From a virus (Duplodnaviria > Heunggongvirae > Uroviricota > Caudoviricetes), in IMG/VR virus record IMGVR_UViG_2778261094_000002, positions 1-5,911 of that record: 5,911 nucleotides of DNA; one strand, given 5' to 3'. Every line of letters starts with the position of its first letter. Position 1 is the stretch's first letter. Position numbers and translations under genes: made by a program. Below the pieces are notes generated by a model. The model worked only from the letters and a program-made list of their open reading frames with translations, had not been told where the DNA came from and did not search any database. This document shows positions 2,521 through 5,896 of this stretch, in pieces.

Positions 2521-3049
2521 TATCGCGTCCTCAACAATGAATTTTGTGATGCGGCGCCTGGTGCCTCCAGGTGACGTTAACCAGTAAACCATTAACGCCG
2601 GATTGTTAGTTGATGTCTGTTACGCAAGTAAAAGACCGCTTGTTTTAACTGTTCCGCGTGCGCTGAGCCGCATTCACCGCATCACAAAATTCACTTTAAA
2701 AGGGGCGGGTATCACGGGAAAAACAAAACGAATACCCGCCAAAAGGTAATCAACATGGGTTGTTGTAGCGGAGTTGTCACTCAGGCGTATGGTCAACCTG
2801 ACAACCCGGTGTCCTCAACGGGGAAGGAATAACCCCGCCATACTTACCGCCGCGCCATTTCGCGGAGTGCCACAACCGGAAGCGCACGGTCGACGAAAAT
2901 TTAACGACAGGCTATCTATGAACCAGCAACCTCGCCGTGCGCTTTCGCGTTATGCTCTGACTTTTCAGAGAAATATCCTTTCAGTAAACTGTCAGTGCCG
3001 GATGTTCACCCGTGGAGAACTCCTTAATTACCAACCCTCAGGAGGGTGA

Positions 3050-3283
3050 ATGTTAAAATCAACTCTTATTGCTAAATGCCTTTATCAAAATCGCATGGTA
3101 AGCAGCATTTCAATAGGCGAGTCTGCAGTTAAAAGTATTTTCGAAGAGTACTTTTCCGGGCATGATTTTAATAAATGGAATACCAAATTACCGCCAGCAG
3201 TTTCAACGCGTATTCTGAAAGCAACTGAAAGAGCAAGTACAATTCGCGTTAACTATTTCATTAAAGATTTGTGGGATCTTTGA
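3050..3283 (+). CDS. Hypothetical 77-aa protein, AT-rich, lysine-rich; transcribed opposite to the leftward operon
   Basis: ATG at 3050 preceded by AGGAGGG (3040-3046). Translation MLKSTLIAKCLYQNRMVSSISIGESAVKSIFEEYFSGHDFNKWNTKLPPAVSTRILKATERASTIRVNYFIKDLWDL, stop TGA at 3281-3283. Codon usage is AT-biased relative to the flanking genes. No recognisable family. Confidence 0.5.
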   Translation: MLKSTLIAKCLYQNRMVSSISIGESAVKSIFEEYFSGHDFNKWNTKLPPAVSTRILKATERASTIRVNYFIKDLWDL

Positions 3284-3668
3284 TATCCACAGAGCCTAAA
3301 GTATGTGCATATGGATGTGCTATTGTGCGCCCTCGCAGATTTGCATCATTTTCTAAATTCACTGAACGAAACAGGGCATCAACAAGGCTCTGTACAATGC
3401 AAAGGCAATCGAAGACTGTCGCCGTTTCTGTTTTGATTGATGAAAGAACATGGCCATTCACGCAAACAGAAATTACCCGTTTATTAACATCGCTTTCCTG
3501 CTTTTGATTATCAGAACCATATAGCCCAGAAAAAGCATTGCGCACATTACGAACCATATTATCGATGGTTTCTTTTTTGGTGTATGCCGGGTCAATTTTC
3601 ACCAGACTATCACCGAGAGTCGTTGCAGCAATTGTCTGGATTTCTTTTGGTAAATCTTTAAATTCCAT
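3261..3668 (-). CDS. Hypothetical 135-aa protein
   Basis: ATG at 3668..3666 with GAGG 6 nt upstream; stop TAA at 3263..3261. Translation MEFKDLPKEIQTIAATTLGDSLVKIDPAYTKKETIDNMVRNVRNAFSGLYGSDNQKQESDVNKRVISVCVNGHVLSSIKTETATVFDCLCIVQSLVDALFRSVNLENDANLRGRTIAHPYAHTLGSVDIKDPTNL has protein-like composition and no predicted TM segment. No family recognised. Its 3' end overlaps the plus-strand 77-aa ORF by 23 bp. Confidence 0.6.
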   Translation of the reverse strand: MEFKDLPKEIQTIAATTLGDSLVKIDPAYTKKETIDNMVRNVRNAFSGLYGSDNQKQESDVNKRVISVCVNGHVLSSIKTETATVFDCLCIVQSLVDALFRSVNLENDANLRGRTIAHPYAHTLGSVDIKDPTNL

Positions 3669-3690
3669 TATTAGCCTCGTTGGTTAGCTA

Positions 3691-3909
3691 TTAACGTGGG
3701 TATGTAATCATTCTGGCAATGCTTAATGCCGCTGCTTTTTCCAGATTGGTGATATCCTGCTCCAGAGCGGACAGATTTTCAGCCTGCTTAGCCCTGGCTT
3801 CATTGGCCCATTTCAGGTCCTGCGCAGCCTTAATTTTCTGGTGCATCCACTCATAAAGTTCATCATCGGTATAGTCTGGCGCGATGATGACGGGTTCTCG
3901 TTTCTGCAT
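3691..3909 (-). CDS. Hypothetical 72-aa protein, probably helical / coiled-coil-like C-terminus
   Basis: ATG at 3909..3907 preceded by GAGGAA with 5-nt spacing; stop TAA at 3693..3691. Translation MQKREPVIIAPDYTDDELYEWMHQKIKAAQDLKWANEARAKQAENLSALEQDITNLEKAAALSIARMITYPR. Confidence 0.6.
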   Translation of the reverse strand: MQKREPVIIAPDYTDDELYEWMHQKIKAAQDLKWANEARAKQAENLSALEQDITNLEKAAALSIARMITYPR

Positions 3910-4401: not shown

Positions 4402-4430
4402 ATGGTAACAAGAGTTACCATTGAAGTCAA
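4402..4430 (-). promoter_or_regulatory. PL-like leftward early promoter with embedded operator palindrome (OL)
   Basis: Minus-strand reading: TTGACT (4430..4425), 17-bp spacer, TGT-TACCAT extended -10 (4410..4402). The perfect palindrome GGTAAC-aaga-GTTACC (4404-4419) lies between -35 and -10. Further GTAAC/GTTAC-like half-sites occur at 4351-4355 and 4437-4441. Confidence 0.4.
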
Positions 4431-4462
4431 TATGATGTTACAAAAGGTACGCTTAGGGGTGT

Positions 4463-4487
4463 AAAAAACCCGCAATGAATGCGGGTT
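4463..4487 (-). terminator. Rho-independent terminator of the repressor gene
   Basis: Minus-strand reading, 5 nt after the repressor TAA stop: AACCCGCA-TTCAT-TGCGGGTT followed by TTTT (GC-rich 8-bp stem at 4467-4474 / 4480-4487, 5-nt loop, six consecutive T including the stem end). Confidence 0.65.
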
Positions 4488-4492
4488 CTGAC

Positions 4493-5167
4493 TTAGTCTA
4501 AGTATTGATGTATTTGTGAAACTTTACCTTTAATAGTGTAACCGACATTCAGTTCAATGGGTTTGTAAAGCGGGTTCAGTGACAACAGATAGATGTTTGG
4601 TCCGTCAATCGCAACTTTTTTTAGTGTTACGTTTGGCGTACCCTCCAATTGGATTAAGATTATTTTTCCCACCAGTTCTCTAATGTTACTTGAGCATGGT
4701 GTGATCAGCACGGTAGATCCGTCTGGGATTGTTGGGAGGCCGTTAGAGTTCGTCATCGAATCTCCCTCAACGTGCAATAAAAAAGAGTTTTCAGCGGTTT
4801 TTGTCATGACATCAACCCAATTCTTAATACCAGGAATCTCGGTTACTGGGCAACTCATATCCCAATAACCAGCCTGTTCCCACGTTAAAACGGGCAACCG
4901 GGCGATGTTGTCACTAATGTAAAGGTACTGATTCAGACGCAGATCATCGGCTTTATCGTGATCGTCCTTTCCATAAAGAATCCATTCAGGAGATTTTGAA
5001 AGCAATTTTGACAGCAGATGCAAATTCTCACCGTCAGGTTTTGAAGAGCCATTTTCCCATTTTGTTACGGATACACGAGTTATGCCGATTGCTTTTGCAA
5101 CCTGCTCTTGGGTTAGTCCAACGTCTTTTCGACGATTCCGAATACGTTCGCTGATAGTGTTTTTCAT
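4493..5167 (-). CDS. CI/LexA-like prophage repressor: N-terminal XRE-type HTH plus C-terminal S24 peptidase (autocleavage) domain, 224 aa
   Basis: HTH segment LTQEQVAKAIGITRVSVTKWENG. S24 catalytic motifs GDSM (Ser) and TLKK (Lys). Candidate Ala-Gly cleavage site in the linker (EQAGYW). Stop TAA at 4495..4493. I chose the start at ATG 5167 (MKNTISERIRNRRK...) because the HTH then begins about 17 residues in and 91 bp of intergenic space remains for operators. ATG 5209 (14 residues longer) overlaps a consensus TTGACA. The track's start at 5416 is a TTG that would overlap the divergent cro-like gene. Confidence 0.8.
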   Translation of the reverse strand: MKNTISERIRNRRKDVGLTQEQVAKAIGITRVSVTKWENGSSKPDGENLHLLSKLLSKSPEWILYGKDDHDKADDLRLNQYLYISDNIARLPVLTWEQAGYWDMSCPVTEIPGIKNWVDVMTKTAENSFLLHVEGDSMTNSNGLPTIPDGSTVLITPCSSNIRELVGKIILIQLEGTPNVTLKKVAIDGPNIYLLSLNPLYKPIELNVGYTIKGKVSQIHQYLD

Positions 5168-5202
5168 GTAATCAATGTTACTACCAAGTAATGTCACTAT
5201 GG

Positions 5203-5232
5203 TTGACATTGCGATGTAACTATTGTTACCCT
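5203..5232 (+). promoter_or_regulatory. PR-like rightward early promoter with embedded operator (OR)
   Basis: TTGACA (5203-5208), 18-bp spacer, TGT-TACCCT extended -10 (5224-5232). Inverted repeat GTAAC-tatt-GTTAC (5216-5229) overlaps the -10. Architecture mirrors the PL-like element on the other side of the repressor gene. Additional half-site-like repeats at 5177-5197. Confidence 0.4.
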
Positions 5233-5258: not shown

Positions 5259-5474
5259 ATGTTCAAAGATGATGTTCTGCGCCATTTCAAAAAAAAGCGA
5301 CTAGTAGCTGAGGCTCTTGGGATTTCACATGTGGCTGTTGTGCGGTGGAAAGCTGTTATTCCCAAACTTCGCGCAATGGAGCTGGATGAAATTACTAACG
5401 GTGAATTGAAATACAACCCAGAGCTTTACAAGAGGCAGGATAGCACCTCGAACGAAGGAAAGAATGATTCATGA
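5259..5474 (+). CDS. Cro/YdaS-like small HTH regulator, 71 aa, divergent from the repressor
   Basis: ATG 5259 preceded by AGGAGAG (5248-5254). Translation MFKDDVLRHFKKKRLVAEALGISHVAVVRWKAVIPKLRAMELDEITNGELKYNPELYKRQDSTSNEGKNDS shows the Cro/YdaS-type pattern (G-I-S...A-V..W....IP......E.IT.G). Stop TGA 5472-5474 overlaps the next ATG. Confidence 0.7.
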   Translation: MFKDDVLRHFKKKRLVAEALGISHVAVVRWKAVIPKLRAMELDEITNGELKYNPELYKRQDSTSNEGKNDS

Positions 5475-5896
5475 AAATCAAGCATGAGCACATCCGCATG
5501 GCGATGAATGCCTGGGCGCATCCGGACGGCGAAAAAGTACCGACTGCGAAGATTACCAAAGCGTATTTCGAACTGGGTATGACGTTCCCGGAACTGTACG
5601 ACGACAGCCATCCGGAAGCCCTGTCTCGTAATACCCAGAAAATTTTCCGCTGGGTAGAAAAAGACACCCCTGATGCGGTTAAAAAAATTCAGGCGTTGTT
5701 ACCGGCGATCGAAAAAGCAATGCCGCCTCCGCTGGTGGCCCGAATGCGCAGCCACAGTTCGGAATATCACCGGGAGCTTGTCGAGCGACGGGAGCGCCTG
5801 GTGAAAGATATCGATGAGTTTGTTGCGGCAGCGATCGTGTTGTTCGATCAGATGAATCGTGGTGGTCCGGCGGGAAATGCCGTGGTGGCGCATTGA
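5471..5896 (+). CDS. ydaT: YdaT-family protein (Rac prophage YdaT-like; occupies the cII-like position after cro), 141 aa
   Basis: ATG 5471 in an ATGA overlap with the cro-like stop. Translation MKIKHEHIRMAMNAWAHPDGEKVPTAKITKAYFELGMTFPELYDDSHPEALSRNTQKIFRWVEKD... matches my recollection of Rac YdaT in length (about 140 aa) and sequence flavour. Stop TGA 5894-5896. Confidence 0.7.
   Translation: MKIKHEHIRMAMNAWAHPDGEKVPTAKITKAYFELGMTFPELYDDSHPEALSRNTQKIFRWVEKDTPDAVKKIQALLPAIEKAMPPPLVARMRSHSSEYHRELVERRERLVKDIDEFVAAAIVLFDQMNRGGPAGNAVVAH
5731..5738 (+). other. Chi octamer GCTGGTGG
   Basis: Exact match on the plus strand inside the ydaT-like gene, same orientation as the site at 141-148. Confidence 0.5.

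What the first reader, a model, noticed from the sequence alone, without database searches (positions are those of the whole stretch)
3050..3668. Convergent, overlapping pair of uncharacterised genes (77 aa plus / 135 aa minus) in the kilR/sieB slot: candidate novel accessory or defence module
In Rac as I remember it, the stretch between the small immunity-proximal genes and ydaE/racC carries kilR (minus) and sieB (plus). Here it carries instead a 135-aa minus-strand gene and a 77-aa plus-strand gene with a strong RBS, tail-to-tail with a 23-bp 3' overlap (3261-3283). Both are visibly more AT-rich than the flanking recE and repressor genes (by eye, not computed), and neither matches a family I recognise. 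An oppositely oriented, separately promoted gene inside an early operon next to the repressor is the classic layout of lambdoid exclusion/defence morons (rexAB, sieB). The convergent overlap also allows mutual antisense control.
Basis: partly seen in the sequence, partly recalled or inferred. Interest (0 to 1): 0.7.

Follow-up and report, generated by a model that had tools for sequence, protein, structure and literature searches.

The report
Conserved tail-to-tail prophage gene pair
The two overlapping genes are real and form a tightly linked pair of unknown function found next to the repressor in prophages of many enterobacteria, possibly a lysogen-expressed factor with its own early-phase antidote, but no function has been shown.

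Summary
Both ORFs exist as described: 77 aa on the plus strand (3050-3283), 135 aa on the minus strand (3261-3668), with a 23-bp tail-to-tail overlap and a strong RBS.

The context given is wrong. This is not the Rac kilR/sieB slot. It is a Qin-type dicB operon (ydfA-ydfB-ydfC ... dicB-ydfD). The pair is a clean 634-bp insertion (3037-3670) that K-12 Qin lacks.

Both genes are coding (dN/dS 0.24 and 0.43). Every source calls them hypothetical (PHROG 10348 and 1363). There are no Pfam, PADLOC, PDB-sequence or fold matches, although the 77-aa model is very confident (pLDDT 96.9).

The main new result is that the 77-aa gene and the C-terminal ~78-aa domain of the minus-strand protein form a conserved convergent, overlapping module. 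It occurs in at least ten enterobacterial genera, always leftward of the CI-type repressor. The 77-aa gene was never found without this partner. The partner sometimes occurs with other reversed cassettes instead.

In Klebsiella the partner is the first gene of the operator-controlled early-left operon, and the 77-aa gene faces it from its own conserved promoter-like element.

Best reading, not shown: a lysogen-expressed factor plus an early-expressed cognate antagonist. Interest is moderate.

The parts
3037..3670 (.). The cassette: 634 bp present here and absent from K-12 Qin. It holds both genes and both ribosome-binding sites. GC is 39.0%.
   Evidence: BLASTN against K-12 Qin: homology runs to window 3671 on one side and resumes at 3036 on the other. 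GC.
3050..3283 (+). 77-aa gene (PHROG 10348), predicted as five helices. It is oriented against the early-left operon.
   Evidence: ORF; RefSeq CDS WP_001735122.1; PHROG E 2.7e-46; length-conserved homologues in many genera; dN/dS 0.24; AF2 pLDDT 96.9; no PDB relative.
3040..3045 (+). AGGAGG ribosome-binding site of the 77-aa gene. The alternative 63-aa allele uses the same site.
   Evidence: Sequence. The alignment with L002 shows identity resuming exactly at this RBS.
3261..3668 (-). 135-aa gene (PHROG 1363), a two-domain protein in the early-left (dicB) operon.
   Evidence: ORF; RefSeq CDS WP_000394520.1; PHROG E 3.8e-47.
3261..3497 (-). Partner domain (residues 58-135). It is homologous to standalone proteins of 75-90 aa that always converge on the 77-aa gene in other genera. 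Predicted as a beta-hairpin plus two helices.
   Evidence: 37-39% identity to the Klebsiella and Serratia partners; phrog_23433 match to residues 55-128; profile search found 120 clusters; co-occurrence survey; AF2 pLDDT 66-86 in this part; dN/dS 0.43.
3498..3668 (-). N-terminal 'MEFKDLPKEIQ...' domain (residues 1-57). It is specific to Escherichia and Salmonella and is shared by proteins with several unrelated C-termini in this slot.
   Evidence: Sequences P0043-P0052; PHROGs 9419, 2151, 6937 and 33007 match only residues 1-55/72; poorly modelled.
3261..3283 (.). 23-bp 3' coding overlap. The last seven codons and the stop of the minus-strand gene are the antisense of ...IKDLWDL-stop.
   Evidence: The same overlap (23, 26, 33 or 51 bp) is present in all 132 loci that hold both genes.
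2962..2990 (+). Weak candidate promoter for the 77-aa gene (TTTTCA, 17 nt, TAAACT), 59 nt before the ATG. Not significant.
   Evidence: PWM scan: score 8.8, reached by 18% of shuffles. Conserved in all E. coli copies, but so is the whole region.
3005..3014 (+). TTCACCCGTG, the site of a 29-bp deletion relative to most E. coli copies. Those carry two such repeats flanking inverted repeats.
   Evidence: 57 of 64 E. coli loci have the longer form and 7 have the window's form.
4402..4430 (-). PL-like promoter (TTGACT, 17 nt, TACCAT with TG) upstream of ydfA. This is the presumed start of the operon that contains the 135-aa gene.
   Evidence: Consensus scan. Position corresponds to the DicA-repressed dicBF promoter (PMC5069750).
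3691..3909 (-). ydfC, the gene immediately upstream of the 135-aa gene in the operon.
   Evidence: RefSeq annotation; PHROG 1744; 96% identical to K-12 ydfC.
2698..2740 (-). Stable hairpin plus U-run at the position of the dicF 3' end. It is the first terminator-like structure on the operon strand beyond the pair.
   Evidence: Fold -16.8 kcal/mol, z = -2.9; position maps to K-12 dicF; no Rfam DicF match.

Best explanation
Shown:
- Window 3037-3670 is an accessory cassette of lambdoid prophages inserted in a Qin-type dicB operon.
- It carries a conserved two-gene module. One gene is a 77-aa gene read against the early-left operon. The other is an operon gene whose C-terminal ~78-aa domain is its constant companion. 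Their 3' ends always overlap.
- Where it could be mapped (Klebsiella), the companion is the first gene of the operator-controlled early-left operon. The 77-aa gene has its own conserved promoter-like element with no repressor operator.

Inferred:
- In the lysogen the early-left operon is repressed, so only the 77-aa protein is made. It does something useful to the prophage or host, most plausibly interference with other phages.
- On induction or infection, early-left transcription runs antisense through the whole 77-aa gene. This gives transcriptional interference and antisense RNA. It also produces the companion protein, which neutralises the 77-aa protein so that the phage's own lytic growth is not harmed.
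- In this window the companion domain is fused behind an E. coli-specific N-terminal domain and lies fourth in the operon.
For: - Both genes are real: length-conserved homologues and dN/dS of 0.24 and 0.43.
- Module: all 90 untruncated loci retrieved with the 77-aa protein have the partner domain converging on it, with 45 distinct 77-aa sequences. Genera include Escherichia, Klebsiella, Serratia, Dickeya, Yersinia, Proteus, Photorhabdus, Xenorhabdus, Morganella and Salmonella.
- 40 of 45 loci retrieved with the partner domain have a 77-aa family gene, down to very divergent copies at E about 1e-12.
- Asymmetry: the partner occurs without the 77-aa gene, but the 77-aa gene never occurs without the partner.
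- The flanks are mosaic while the pair stays constant.
- Position: the pair is always leftward of an S24/HTH repressor.
- In Klebsiella there is a repressor-gene terminator, then two ACAG-N7-CTGT operators identical in type to those at OR. They overlap a TTGACC-18-TATTAT promoter 42 nt before the partner gene.
- A promoter-like TTCACC, 16/17 nt, TATCYT lies 29-34 nt before the 77-aa ATG in most genera.
- No terminator lies at or near the overlap in the window.
- The cassette is absent from K-12 Qin and is AT-rich.
- Precedents for prophage defence with cognate self-immunity encoded next to the repressor: BstA/aba (PMC8585504). P22 sieB with its sas antisense RNA (PMC7067206).
Against: - No functional evidence of any kind exists. 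There is no homology to defence, toxin, antitoxin or regulator families.
- Expression in lysogens was not tested.
- In the E. coli version the upstream region is shared with K-12 Qin, which has no plus-strand gene there. No significant promoter was found, and the window's copy has lost 29 bp of that region.
- Co-occurrence could reflect the lack of a recombination point between overlapping genes and not functional coupling. The identity correlation of the two proteins is only r = 0.62.
- Loci are heavily redundant for E. coli.
Confidence: 0.38

Rival explanations
1. These are two independent accessory genes that are merely linked. The partner domain is an ordinary early gene with its own role. 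The 77-aa gene is an unrelated reversed moron that landed behind it. Because their 3' ends overlap, recombination rarely separates them.
For: - The slot behind the partner domain accepts several other reversed cassettes: a 63-aa gene (PHROG 2605), a Zn-ribbon gene and the PHROG 5286 family. So the partner does not need the 77-aa gene.
- The identity correlation between the two proteins is modest, r = 0.62.
- The conserved C-terminal tail of the partner (I-K-D-P-K) can be explained as the antisense of the constrained ...DLWD codons.
Against: - The 77-aa gene was never found without the partner in 45 distinct sequences, even though recombination breakpoints do occur exactly at the overlap.
- Adjacency survives divergence to about 25-30% identity and complete turnover of both flanks.
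Confidence: 0.3
2. This is a lysis-lysogeny control device. The 77-aa protein, made in the lysogen, stabilises lysogeny or modulates induction or the dicB operon. The early partner and convergent transcription switch it off to commit the phage to lytic growth.
For: - The pair is always next to the repressor, at or near the start of the early-left operon.
- Interleaved inverted repeats cover the -35/-10 region of the 77-aa promoter-like element, which looks like an operator.
- The 77-aa protein has a net positive charge (sequence).
Against: - The cassette is dispensable. K-12 Qin and many related prophages lack it or carry other cassettes.
Confidence: 0.17
3. This is a toxin-antitoxin-like addiction pair that stabilises the prophage, with the 77-aa protein as toxin and the partner as antitoxin.
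For: - The dependency is asymmetric: the partner can occur alone but the 77-aa gene never does.
- Some copies of the 77-aa gene are frameshifted while the partner is intact: Photorhabdus L013 and E. coli L125/L126.
- Other TA modules (PaaA2/ParE) sit in the same neighbourhood in related prophages.
Against: - If the partner is repressed in the lysogen along with the rest of the early-left operon, a constitutively made toxin would be unopposed.
- The convergent layout is unlike type II operons.
- There are no TA family matches.
- The 77-aa protein has no hydrophobic segment of the kind seen in type I toxins.
Confidence: 0.1
4. The 77-aa ORF is a chance ORF and is not a gene.
For: It is small and AT-rich, and no significant promoter was found in this window.
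Against: - 45 distinct sequences keep a length of 77-78 aa with invariant motifs.
- dN/dS is 0.24.
- The AF2 model has pLDDT 96.9.
- It has a strong RBS.

Confidence: 0.02

Closest known systems
Lambda/P22 sieB (with esc and the sas antisense RNA)
   Same: Both are small accessory genes read against the early-left operon close to the repressor, tail-to-tail with an early gene. sieB is expressed from the prophage, and the phage carries its own escape function with antisense RNA involved. (Layout from my own knowledge of lambda and P22; sas/sieB is cited in PMC7067206.)
   Different: - There is no sequence or family similarity (no Pfam SieB match).
- SieB is a membrane protein of about 190 aa. 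The 77-aa protein is soluble and helical.
- The escape function of sieB is an internal product of the same gene, not a separate convergent gene.
- Exclusion activity has not been tested here.
BstA/aba prophage abortive-infection system with cognate self-immunity
   Same: BstA is a prophage accessory locus beside the cI repressor that is expressed in lysogeny. It comes with a co-encoded cognate element that protects the prophage's own lytic cycle (PMC8585504). This is the logic proposed for the pair.
   Different: - BstA is a large two-domain protein and aba is a 63-bp DNA element inside the same locus. Here the presumed antidote is a protein domain encoded on the opposite strand.
- No homology was found (PADLOC negative).
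- No function has been shown here.
Qin prophage dicBF operon (ydfA-ydfB-ydfC-dicF-dicB-ydfD)
   Same: The window's operon has the same genes in the same order under a repressor/Cro pair. ydfC and the region from the dicF UTR to dicB are 89-96% identical to K-12 (PMC5069750).
   Different: - K-12 Qin has nothing between ydfC and the dicF UTR. Here the 634-bp pair is inserted there.
- The sequence at the dicF position does not match Rfam DicF.
- The repressor is a CI/LexA-type S24 protein and not DicA.
Convergent type I toxin-antitoxin loci with 3' overlap (for example Bacillus txpA/ratA or bsrG/SR4; own knowledge)
   Same: These also use convergent transcription with overlapping 3' ends, giving antisense control of one partner by the other.
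   Different: Both partners here encode conserved proteins under purifying selection. The 77-aa protein is not a small hydrophobic peptide.

Membership tests
Rac prophage kilR/sieB slot | Flanked by racC/ydaE on one side and ydaF/ydaG/racR on the other; contains kilR and sieB homologues | tested here: not met
   The flanks are ydfC and the dicF UTR/dicB/DUF1482. Neither ORF has a SieB or Kil Pfam match. The prophage is integrated beside yccA/tusE.
Qin-type dicBF operon | Order ydfA (DUF1391), ydfB, ydfC, long UTR, dicB, ydfD (DUF1482), downstream of a repressor/Cro pair | tested here: met
   Pfam DUF1391 6.5e-28, DicB 1e-39, DUF1482 1e-22. RefSeq names ydfA, ydfB, ydfC and dicB. 89-96% identity to K-12 Qin.
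Qin-type dicBF operon | DicF sRNA (Rfam RF00039) in the UTR | tested here: not met
   No DicF match at E up to 10 on 2593-3049 or up to 1 on the whole window. Only the 3' hairpin is similar.
Moron (independently transcribed accessory cassette in a prophage) | Present or absent between otherwise homologous prophages, with deviant base composition | tested here: met
   Clean 634-bp indel against K-12 Qin. GC is 39.0% against 48-50% in the flanks.
Moron (independently transcribed accessory cassette in a prophage) | Own promoter | tested here: inconclusive
   A conserved promoter-like TTCACC, 16/17 nt, TATCYT lies 29-34 nt before the ATG in most non-E. coli genera. In this window only a non-significant candidate at 2962-2990 was found.
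Moron (independently transcribed accessory cassette in a prophage) | Own terminator | tested here: not met
   There is no terminator-like structure after either stop codon; the genes overlap.
Moron (independently transcribed accessory cassette in a prophage) | Expressed in the lysogen | not testable with these tools
   No transcriptome data for this locus were found.
Known anti-phage defence systems (PADLOC) | Profile match to a catalogued defence protein | tested here: not met
   No family matched either window protein or the Klebsiella homologues.
Prophage defence with cognate self-immunity (BstA/aba type logic) | Encoded beside the repressor with a co-inherited cognate element | tested here: met
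   The pair is always leftward of the S24/HTH repressor and co-inherited in all 132 loci that hold both genes.
Prophage defence with cognate self-immunity (BstA/aba type logic) | Blocks heterologous phages, and the cognate element rescues the phage's own lytic growth | not testable with these tools
   Needs phage challenge and induction assays.
Type II toxin-antitoxin | Co-directional two-gene operon; antitoxin with a DNA-binding domain; toxin of a known superfamily | tested here: not met
   The genes are convergent. There are no TA Pfam domains and no fold match.
Type I toxin-antitoxin | Small hydrophobic toxin and a non-coding antisense RNA | tested here: not met
   The 77-aa protein has no hydrophobic span. 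The opposing gene is protein-coding with dN/dS 0.43.

The most novel reading that the evidence does not exclude
The pair would be a widespread, unrecognised two-component prophage system. A 77-aa protein with a fold that has no solved relative is made in lysogens and blocks competing phages, or otherwise acts on the host. A repressor-controlled immediate-early protein domain, together with convergent antisense transcription, is its cognate off-switch. The same 'forward early gene plus reversed overlapping gene' design recurs with other unrelated cassettes in this slot. That would make the slot a hotspot for lysogeny-expressed effectors with built-in self-immunity.
Probability: 0.25. Interest if true: 0.75.

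Novelty: new variant of a known kind. Interest (0 to 1): 0.5.

Why it matters
The pair is common. It is in about 12% of complete E. coli genomes, including O157:H7 and Stx2a-phage-associated prophages, and in prophages of Klebsiella, Serratia, Yersinia, Proteus and others. Yet it is annotated only as 'hypothetical'.

If the 77-aa protein is a lysogen-expressed effector with a dedicated early antagonist, it would add a new small system to prophage-encoded defence or host control. It would also give a second, protein-based solution to the self-immunity problem shown for BstA/aba.

The insertion lies inside the dicBF operon, upstream of the dicF position and dicB. Transcription from the 77-aa gene could therefore also affect expression of those cell-division inhibitors.

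If the two genes are merely linked, this is an ordinary pair of unknown prophage genes.

Tried and rejected
- **Rac placement:** rejected by annotation and by homology to K-12 Qin.
- **Repeat proteins:** two hits from the exhaustive search (P0088, P0109) looked like tandem copies of the partner core. They are low-complexity repeat proteins and were discarded.
- **DicF:** an exact or near search and two Rfam scans found none.
- **Conserved terminator:** I looked for one on the early-left strand just beyond the 77-aa promoter, which would define a short immediate-early transcript. Klebsiella has a weak candidate, but there is no consistent signal across genera.
- **Terminators or stable structures at the overlap:** none.
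- **Plus-strand promoter in the window:** only a non-significant candidate.
- **Literature:** searches by protein accession, PHROG id and locus context found no study of these genes.
- **Source names:** all 'hypothetical'. One 'dGTP triphosphohydrolase' label is not credible for a 77-aa protein with no HD domain.
- **Species-representative genome scan:** gave only 3 loci because of its pattern limits.
- **Plasmids:** a single hit among 72,556 plasmid records.

Full report
**1. The observation**

The window has an ATG ORF of 77 aa at 3050-3283 (+) and an ATG ORF of 135 aa at 3261-3668 (-). They lie tail-to-tail and share 23 bp, 3261-3283. AGGAGG sits at 3040-3045, four bases before the plus-strand ATG. 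GAGG sits six bases before the minus-strand ATG. RefSeq annotates exactly these CDS as hypothetical proteins in a 100% identical chromosome, NZ_CP068155.

Computed GC is 35.5% for the 77-aa gene, 40.0% for the 135-aa gene and 39.0% for the cassette. The exonuclease gene is 49.6%, the adjacent UTR 50.0%, ydfC 47.9% and the repressor gene 41.4%. The pair is therefore AT-rich relative to the recE-like gene and its immediate flanks, but hardly so relative to the repressor gene.

**2. The context is not Rac kilR/sieB**

Pfam and RefSeq identify the neighbours:
- RecE-type exonuclease, running off the window start to 2051 (-)
- DUF1482/ydfD-like, 2132-2335
- dicB, 2332-2520
- ydfC, 3691-3909
- ydfB and ydfA (DUF1391)
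- a CI/LexA-type S24 repressor, 4493-5209
- Cro, 5259-5474
- YdaT, 5471-5896

This is the Qin-type dicBF operon described in PMC5069750.

Compared with K-12 Qin, homology runs through ydfC to window 3671 and resumes at 3036. Window 3037-3670 is therefore a clean 634-bp insertion: the two genes with their ribosome-binding sites. The prophage lies beside yccA/tusE.

**3. Both genes are real but uncharacterised**

The 77-aa protein matches PHROG 10348 end to end. The 135-aa protein matches PHROG 1363. Both families are of unknown function. Pfam, NCBIfam and PADLOC give nothing.

The 77-aa protein has homologues of 77-78 aa in Klebsiella, Raoultella, Serratia, Dickeya, Yersinia, Xenorhabdus, Photorhabdus, Proteus, Morganella and Salmonella. 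They share an invariant N-terminus (MLKS.LIAKCL) and C-terminus (RV[DN].FI[KRE]DLW). Median dN/dS is 0.24 for the 77-aa gene and 0.43 for the partner domain.

The 135-aa model is poor in residues 1-62 and moderate in residues 63-130, pLDDT 66-86, with a beta-hairpin followed by two helices. It also has no match.

Every source names both proteins 'hypothetical'. No paper mentioning them was found.

The pair is in 646 of 5426 complete E. coli genomes, including O157:H7. It is also in phage Evi and the PPompW prophages, and on one plasmid record only.

**4. The main finding: a conserved convergent module**

In Klebsiella and Serratia prophages the 77-aa gene is again tail-to-tail with a minus-strand gene. 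The overlap is again 23 bp, but the partner is only 77-79 aa. That partner aligns with residues 58-135 of the window's 135-aa protein at 37-39% identity. A profile of this domain finds 120 clusters across Enterobacterales.

I scanned 141 sources with HMMs of both families:
- All 90 untruncated loci retrieved through the 77-aa protein have the partner domain converging on it.
- 40 of 45 loci retrieved through the partner domain have a 77-aa family gene, including very divergent ones.
- The 3' ends overlap by 23, 26, 33 or 51 bp in every case.
- There are 45 distinct 77-aa sequences.

The flanks differ completely between genera:

| Genus | Upstream of the partner | Beyond the 77-aa gene |
|---|---|---|
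| Escherichia | ydfC | dicB |
| Klebsiella | repressor gene | rdgC |
| Yersinia | repressor gene | YfdP |
| Serratia | repressor gene or unknown genes | YfdP or other genes |
| Proteus | ydfC-like gene | HD-domain protein |

The dependency is one-sided. The partner domain occurs without the 77-aa gene, but the 77-aa gene never occurs without the partner.

**5. The partner is modular and the slot is a cassette site**

In E. coli the partner domain carries an N-terminal 'MEFKDLP...' domain. The same domain is found on proteins with several unrelated C-termini. In Citrobacter and Yersinia the partner domain is fused to a ClpX-type C4 zinc finger. In Y. frederiksenii it has a 110-aa extension.

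An E. coli allele encodes a 201-aa protein. It is identical through codon 128 (…GSVD), then diverges into a 73-aa tail that overlaps a different reversed gene of 63 aa (PHROG 2605), again by 23 bp. DNA identity is lost at codon 128 and returns exactly at the shared AGGAGGGTGA ribosome-binding site.

Other loci without the 77-aa gene carry further forward/reversed overlapping pairs: a Zn-ribbon gene and the PHROG 5286 family. All are of unknown function.

**6. Transcription logic**

In Klebsiella L005 the layout, reading leftward from the repressor gene, is:
- an intrinsic terminator after the repressor gene;
- two ACAG-N7-CTGT sites of the same type as the two between the repressor and cro genes;
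- a TTGACC, 18 nt, TATTAT promoter that these sites overlap;
- the partner gene, 42 nt downstream of that promoter.

So the partner is the first gene of the operator-controlled early-left operon.

The 77-aa gene faces it. In most non-E. coli genera it is preceded by a conserved TTCACC, 16/17 nt, TATCYT element 29-34 nt before the ATG, with interleaved inverted repeats and no repressor operator.

In the window:
- A PL-like promoter lies at 4430-4402 (-), after a repressor-gene terminator hairpin.
- The 135-aa gene is fourth in the operon.
- No terminator lies at the overlap.
- The first stable hairpin with a U-run on the operon strand is at 2698-2740, the dicF position.

Operon transcripts must therefore cover the whole antisense of the 77-aa gene.

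The weak point is the plus-strand promoter in E. coli. The upstream DNA is shared with K-12 Qin and with the 63-aa allele. The best candidate (2962-2990) is not significant. The window's copy also lacks 29 bp present in 57 of 64 E. coli copies.

**7. Interpretation**

What is shown: a real, widespread two-gene module that is conserved as a unit, positioned next to the repressor, with opposite orientation and obligatory 3' overlap.

What is inferred: the 77-aa protein is made in the lysogen. The early partner, helped by convergent transcription, switches it off or neutralises it during the phage's own lytic growth. This is the logic known from P22 sieB/esc/sas and from BstA/aba.

Rival readings are plain linkage of two unrelated accessory genes, a lysis-lysogeny control device, and a toxin-antitoxin-like pair. 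None is excluded. A chance ORF is excluded.

**8. Verdict**

The 'defence module' idea remains a hypothesis with structural but no functional support. The novelty lies in the architecture, not in the existence of the genes, which databases already hold as unknown families. Interest is moderate (0.5).

Noticed in passing
window 2698-2745 (-): At the position that aligns with K-12 dicF there is a stable hairpin plus U-run (z = -2.9) resembling the dicF terminator. The 5' 'seed' part differs, and Rfam DicF does not match even at E up to 10. This is possibly a divergent DicF allele with other targets.
   Followed up: partly
window 2543-2691 (-): Weak match to the Salmonella sRNA family STnc100 (29.9 bits, E 0.0011, below the gathering score of 47) in the UTR just upstream of dicB.
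   Followed up: no
window 3005-3014 (+): The window's copy has lost one 29-bp unit between TTCACCCGTG direct repeats. 57 of 64 E. coli copies keep it. The lost segment forms inverted repeats (GCCGGA...TCCGGC, CTCCAC...GTGGAG) just upstream of the 77-aa gene, so this copy may be regulated differently.
   Followed up: partly
L005 5935-5975 and equivalent positions in L008, L015, L016, L019, L025, L033, L043, L129, L132: Interleaved inverted repeats (GCCTG...CAGGC and CACCAC...GTGGTG) span the -35/-10 of the conserved promoter-like element of the 77-aa gene. Serratia shows a compensated variant (GCCGGG...CCCGGC). This could be an operator or an RNA pseudoknot on the opposite-strand transcript.
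   Followed up: partly
L021 3815-4583, L036 3232-3925, L048 2974-3856: Other forward/reversed gene pairs lie in the same slot, overlapping by about 185-260 nt. The reversed gene belongs to PHROG 5286 (unknown function). In L021/L022 a 66-aa Zn-ribbon ORF lies wholly antisense inside a 97-aa forward ORF.
   Followed up: partly
window 3498-3668 (-); P0043-P0052: The N-terminal ~55 residues (MEFKDLPKEIQ...) are shared by E. coli and Salmonella proteins with at least five unrelated C-terminal parts (124-212 aa). This is either a polymorphic family or a recombination hotspot right after ydfC.
   Followed up: partly
P0122, P0163, P0186, P0198 (Citrobacter, Yersinia): The partner domain is fused behind a ClpX-type C4 zinc finger (PF06689), a domain that in ClpX mediates dimerisation and substrate/adaptor binding.
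   Followed up: no
L013 3995-4230; L125 3001-3247; L126 1420-1666: The 77-aa gene is split by a frameshift while the partner gene stays intact, in Photorhabdus temperata and two E. coli viral contigs.
   Followed up: no
L003 3694-4172; L004 3685-4156: Related E. coli prophages carry a PaaA2/ParE toxin-antitoxin pair between the repressor gene and ydfA, the system studied in PMC8630535. The window lacks it.
   Followed up: no
window 4429-4489: The weak Rfam 'P9' hit is simply the intrinsic terminator hairpin of the repressor gene read on the other strand. It is followed by the PL-like promoter at 4430-4402.
   Followed up: partly
cluster of the 77-aa protein: One source labels the O157 version of the 77-aa protein 'dGTP triphosphohydrolase'. 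Nothing in the sequence or model supports this.
   Followed up: no
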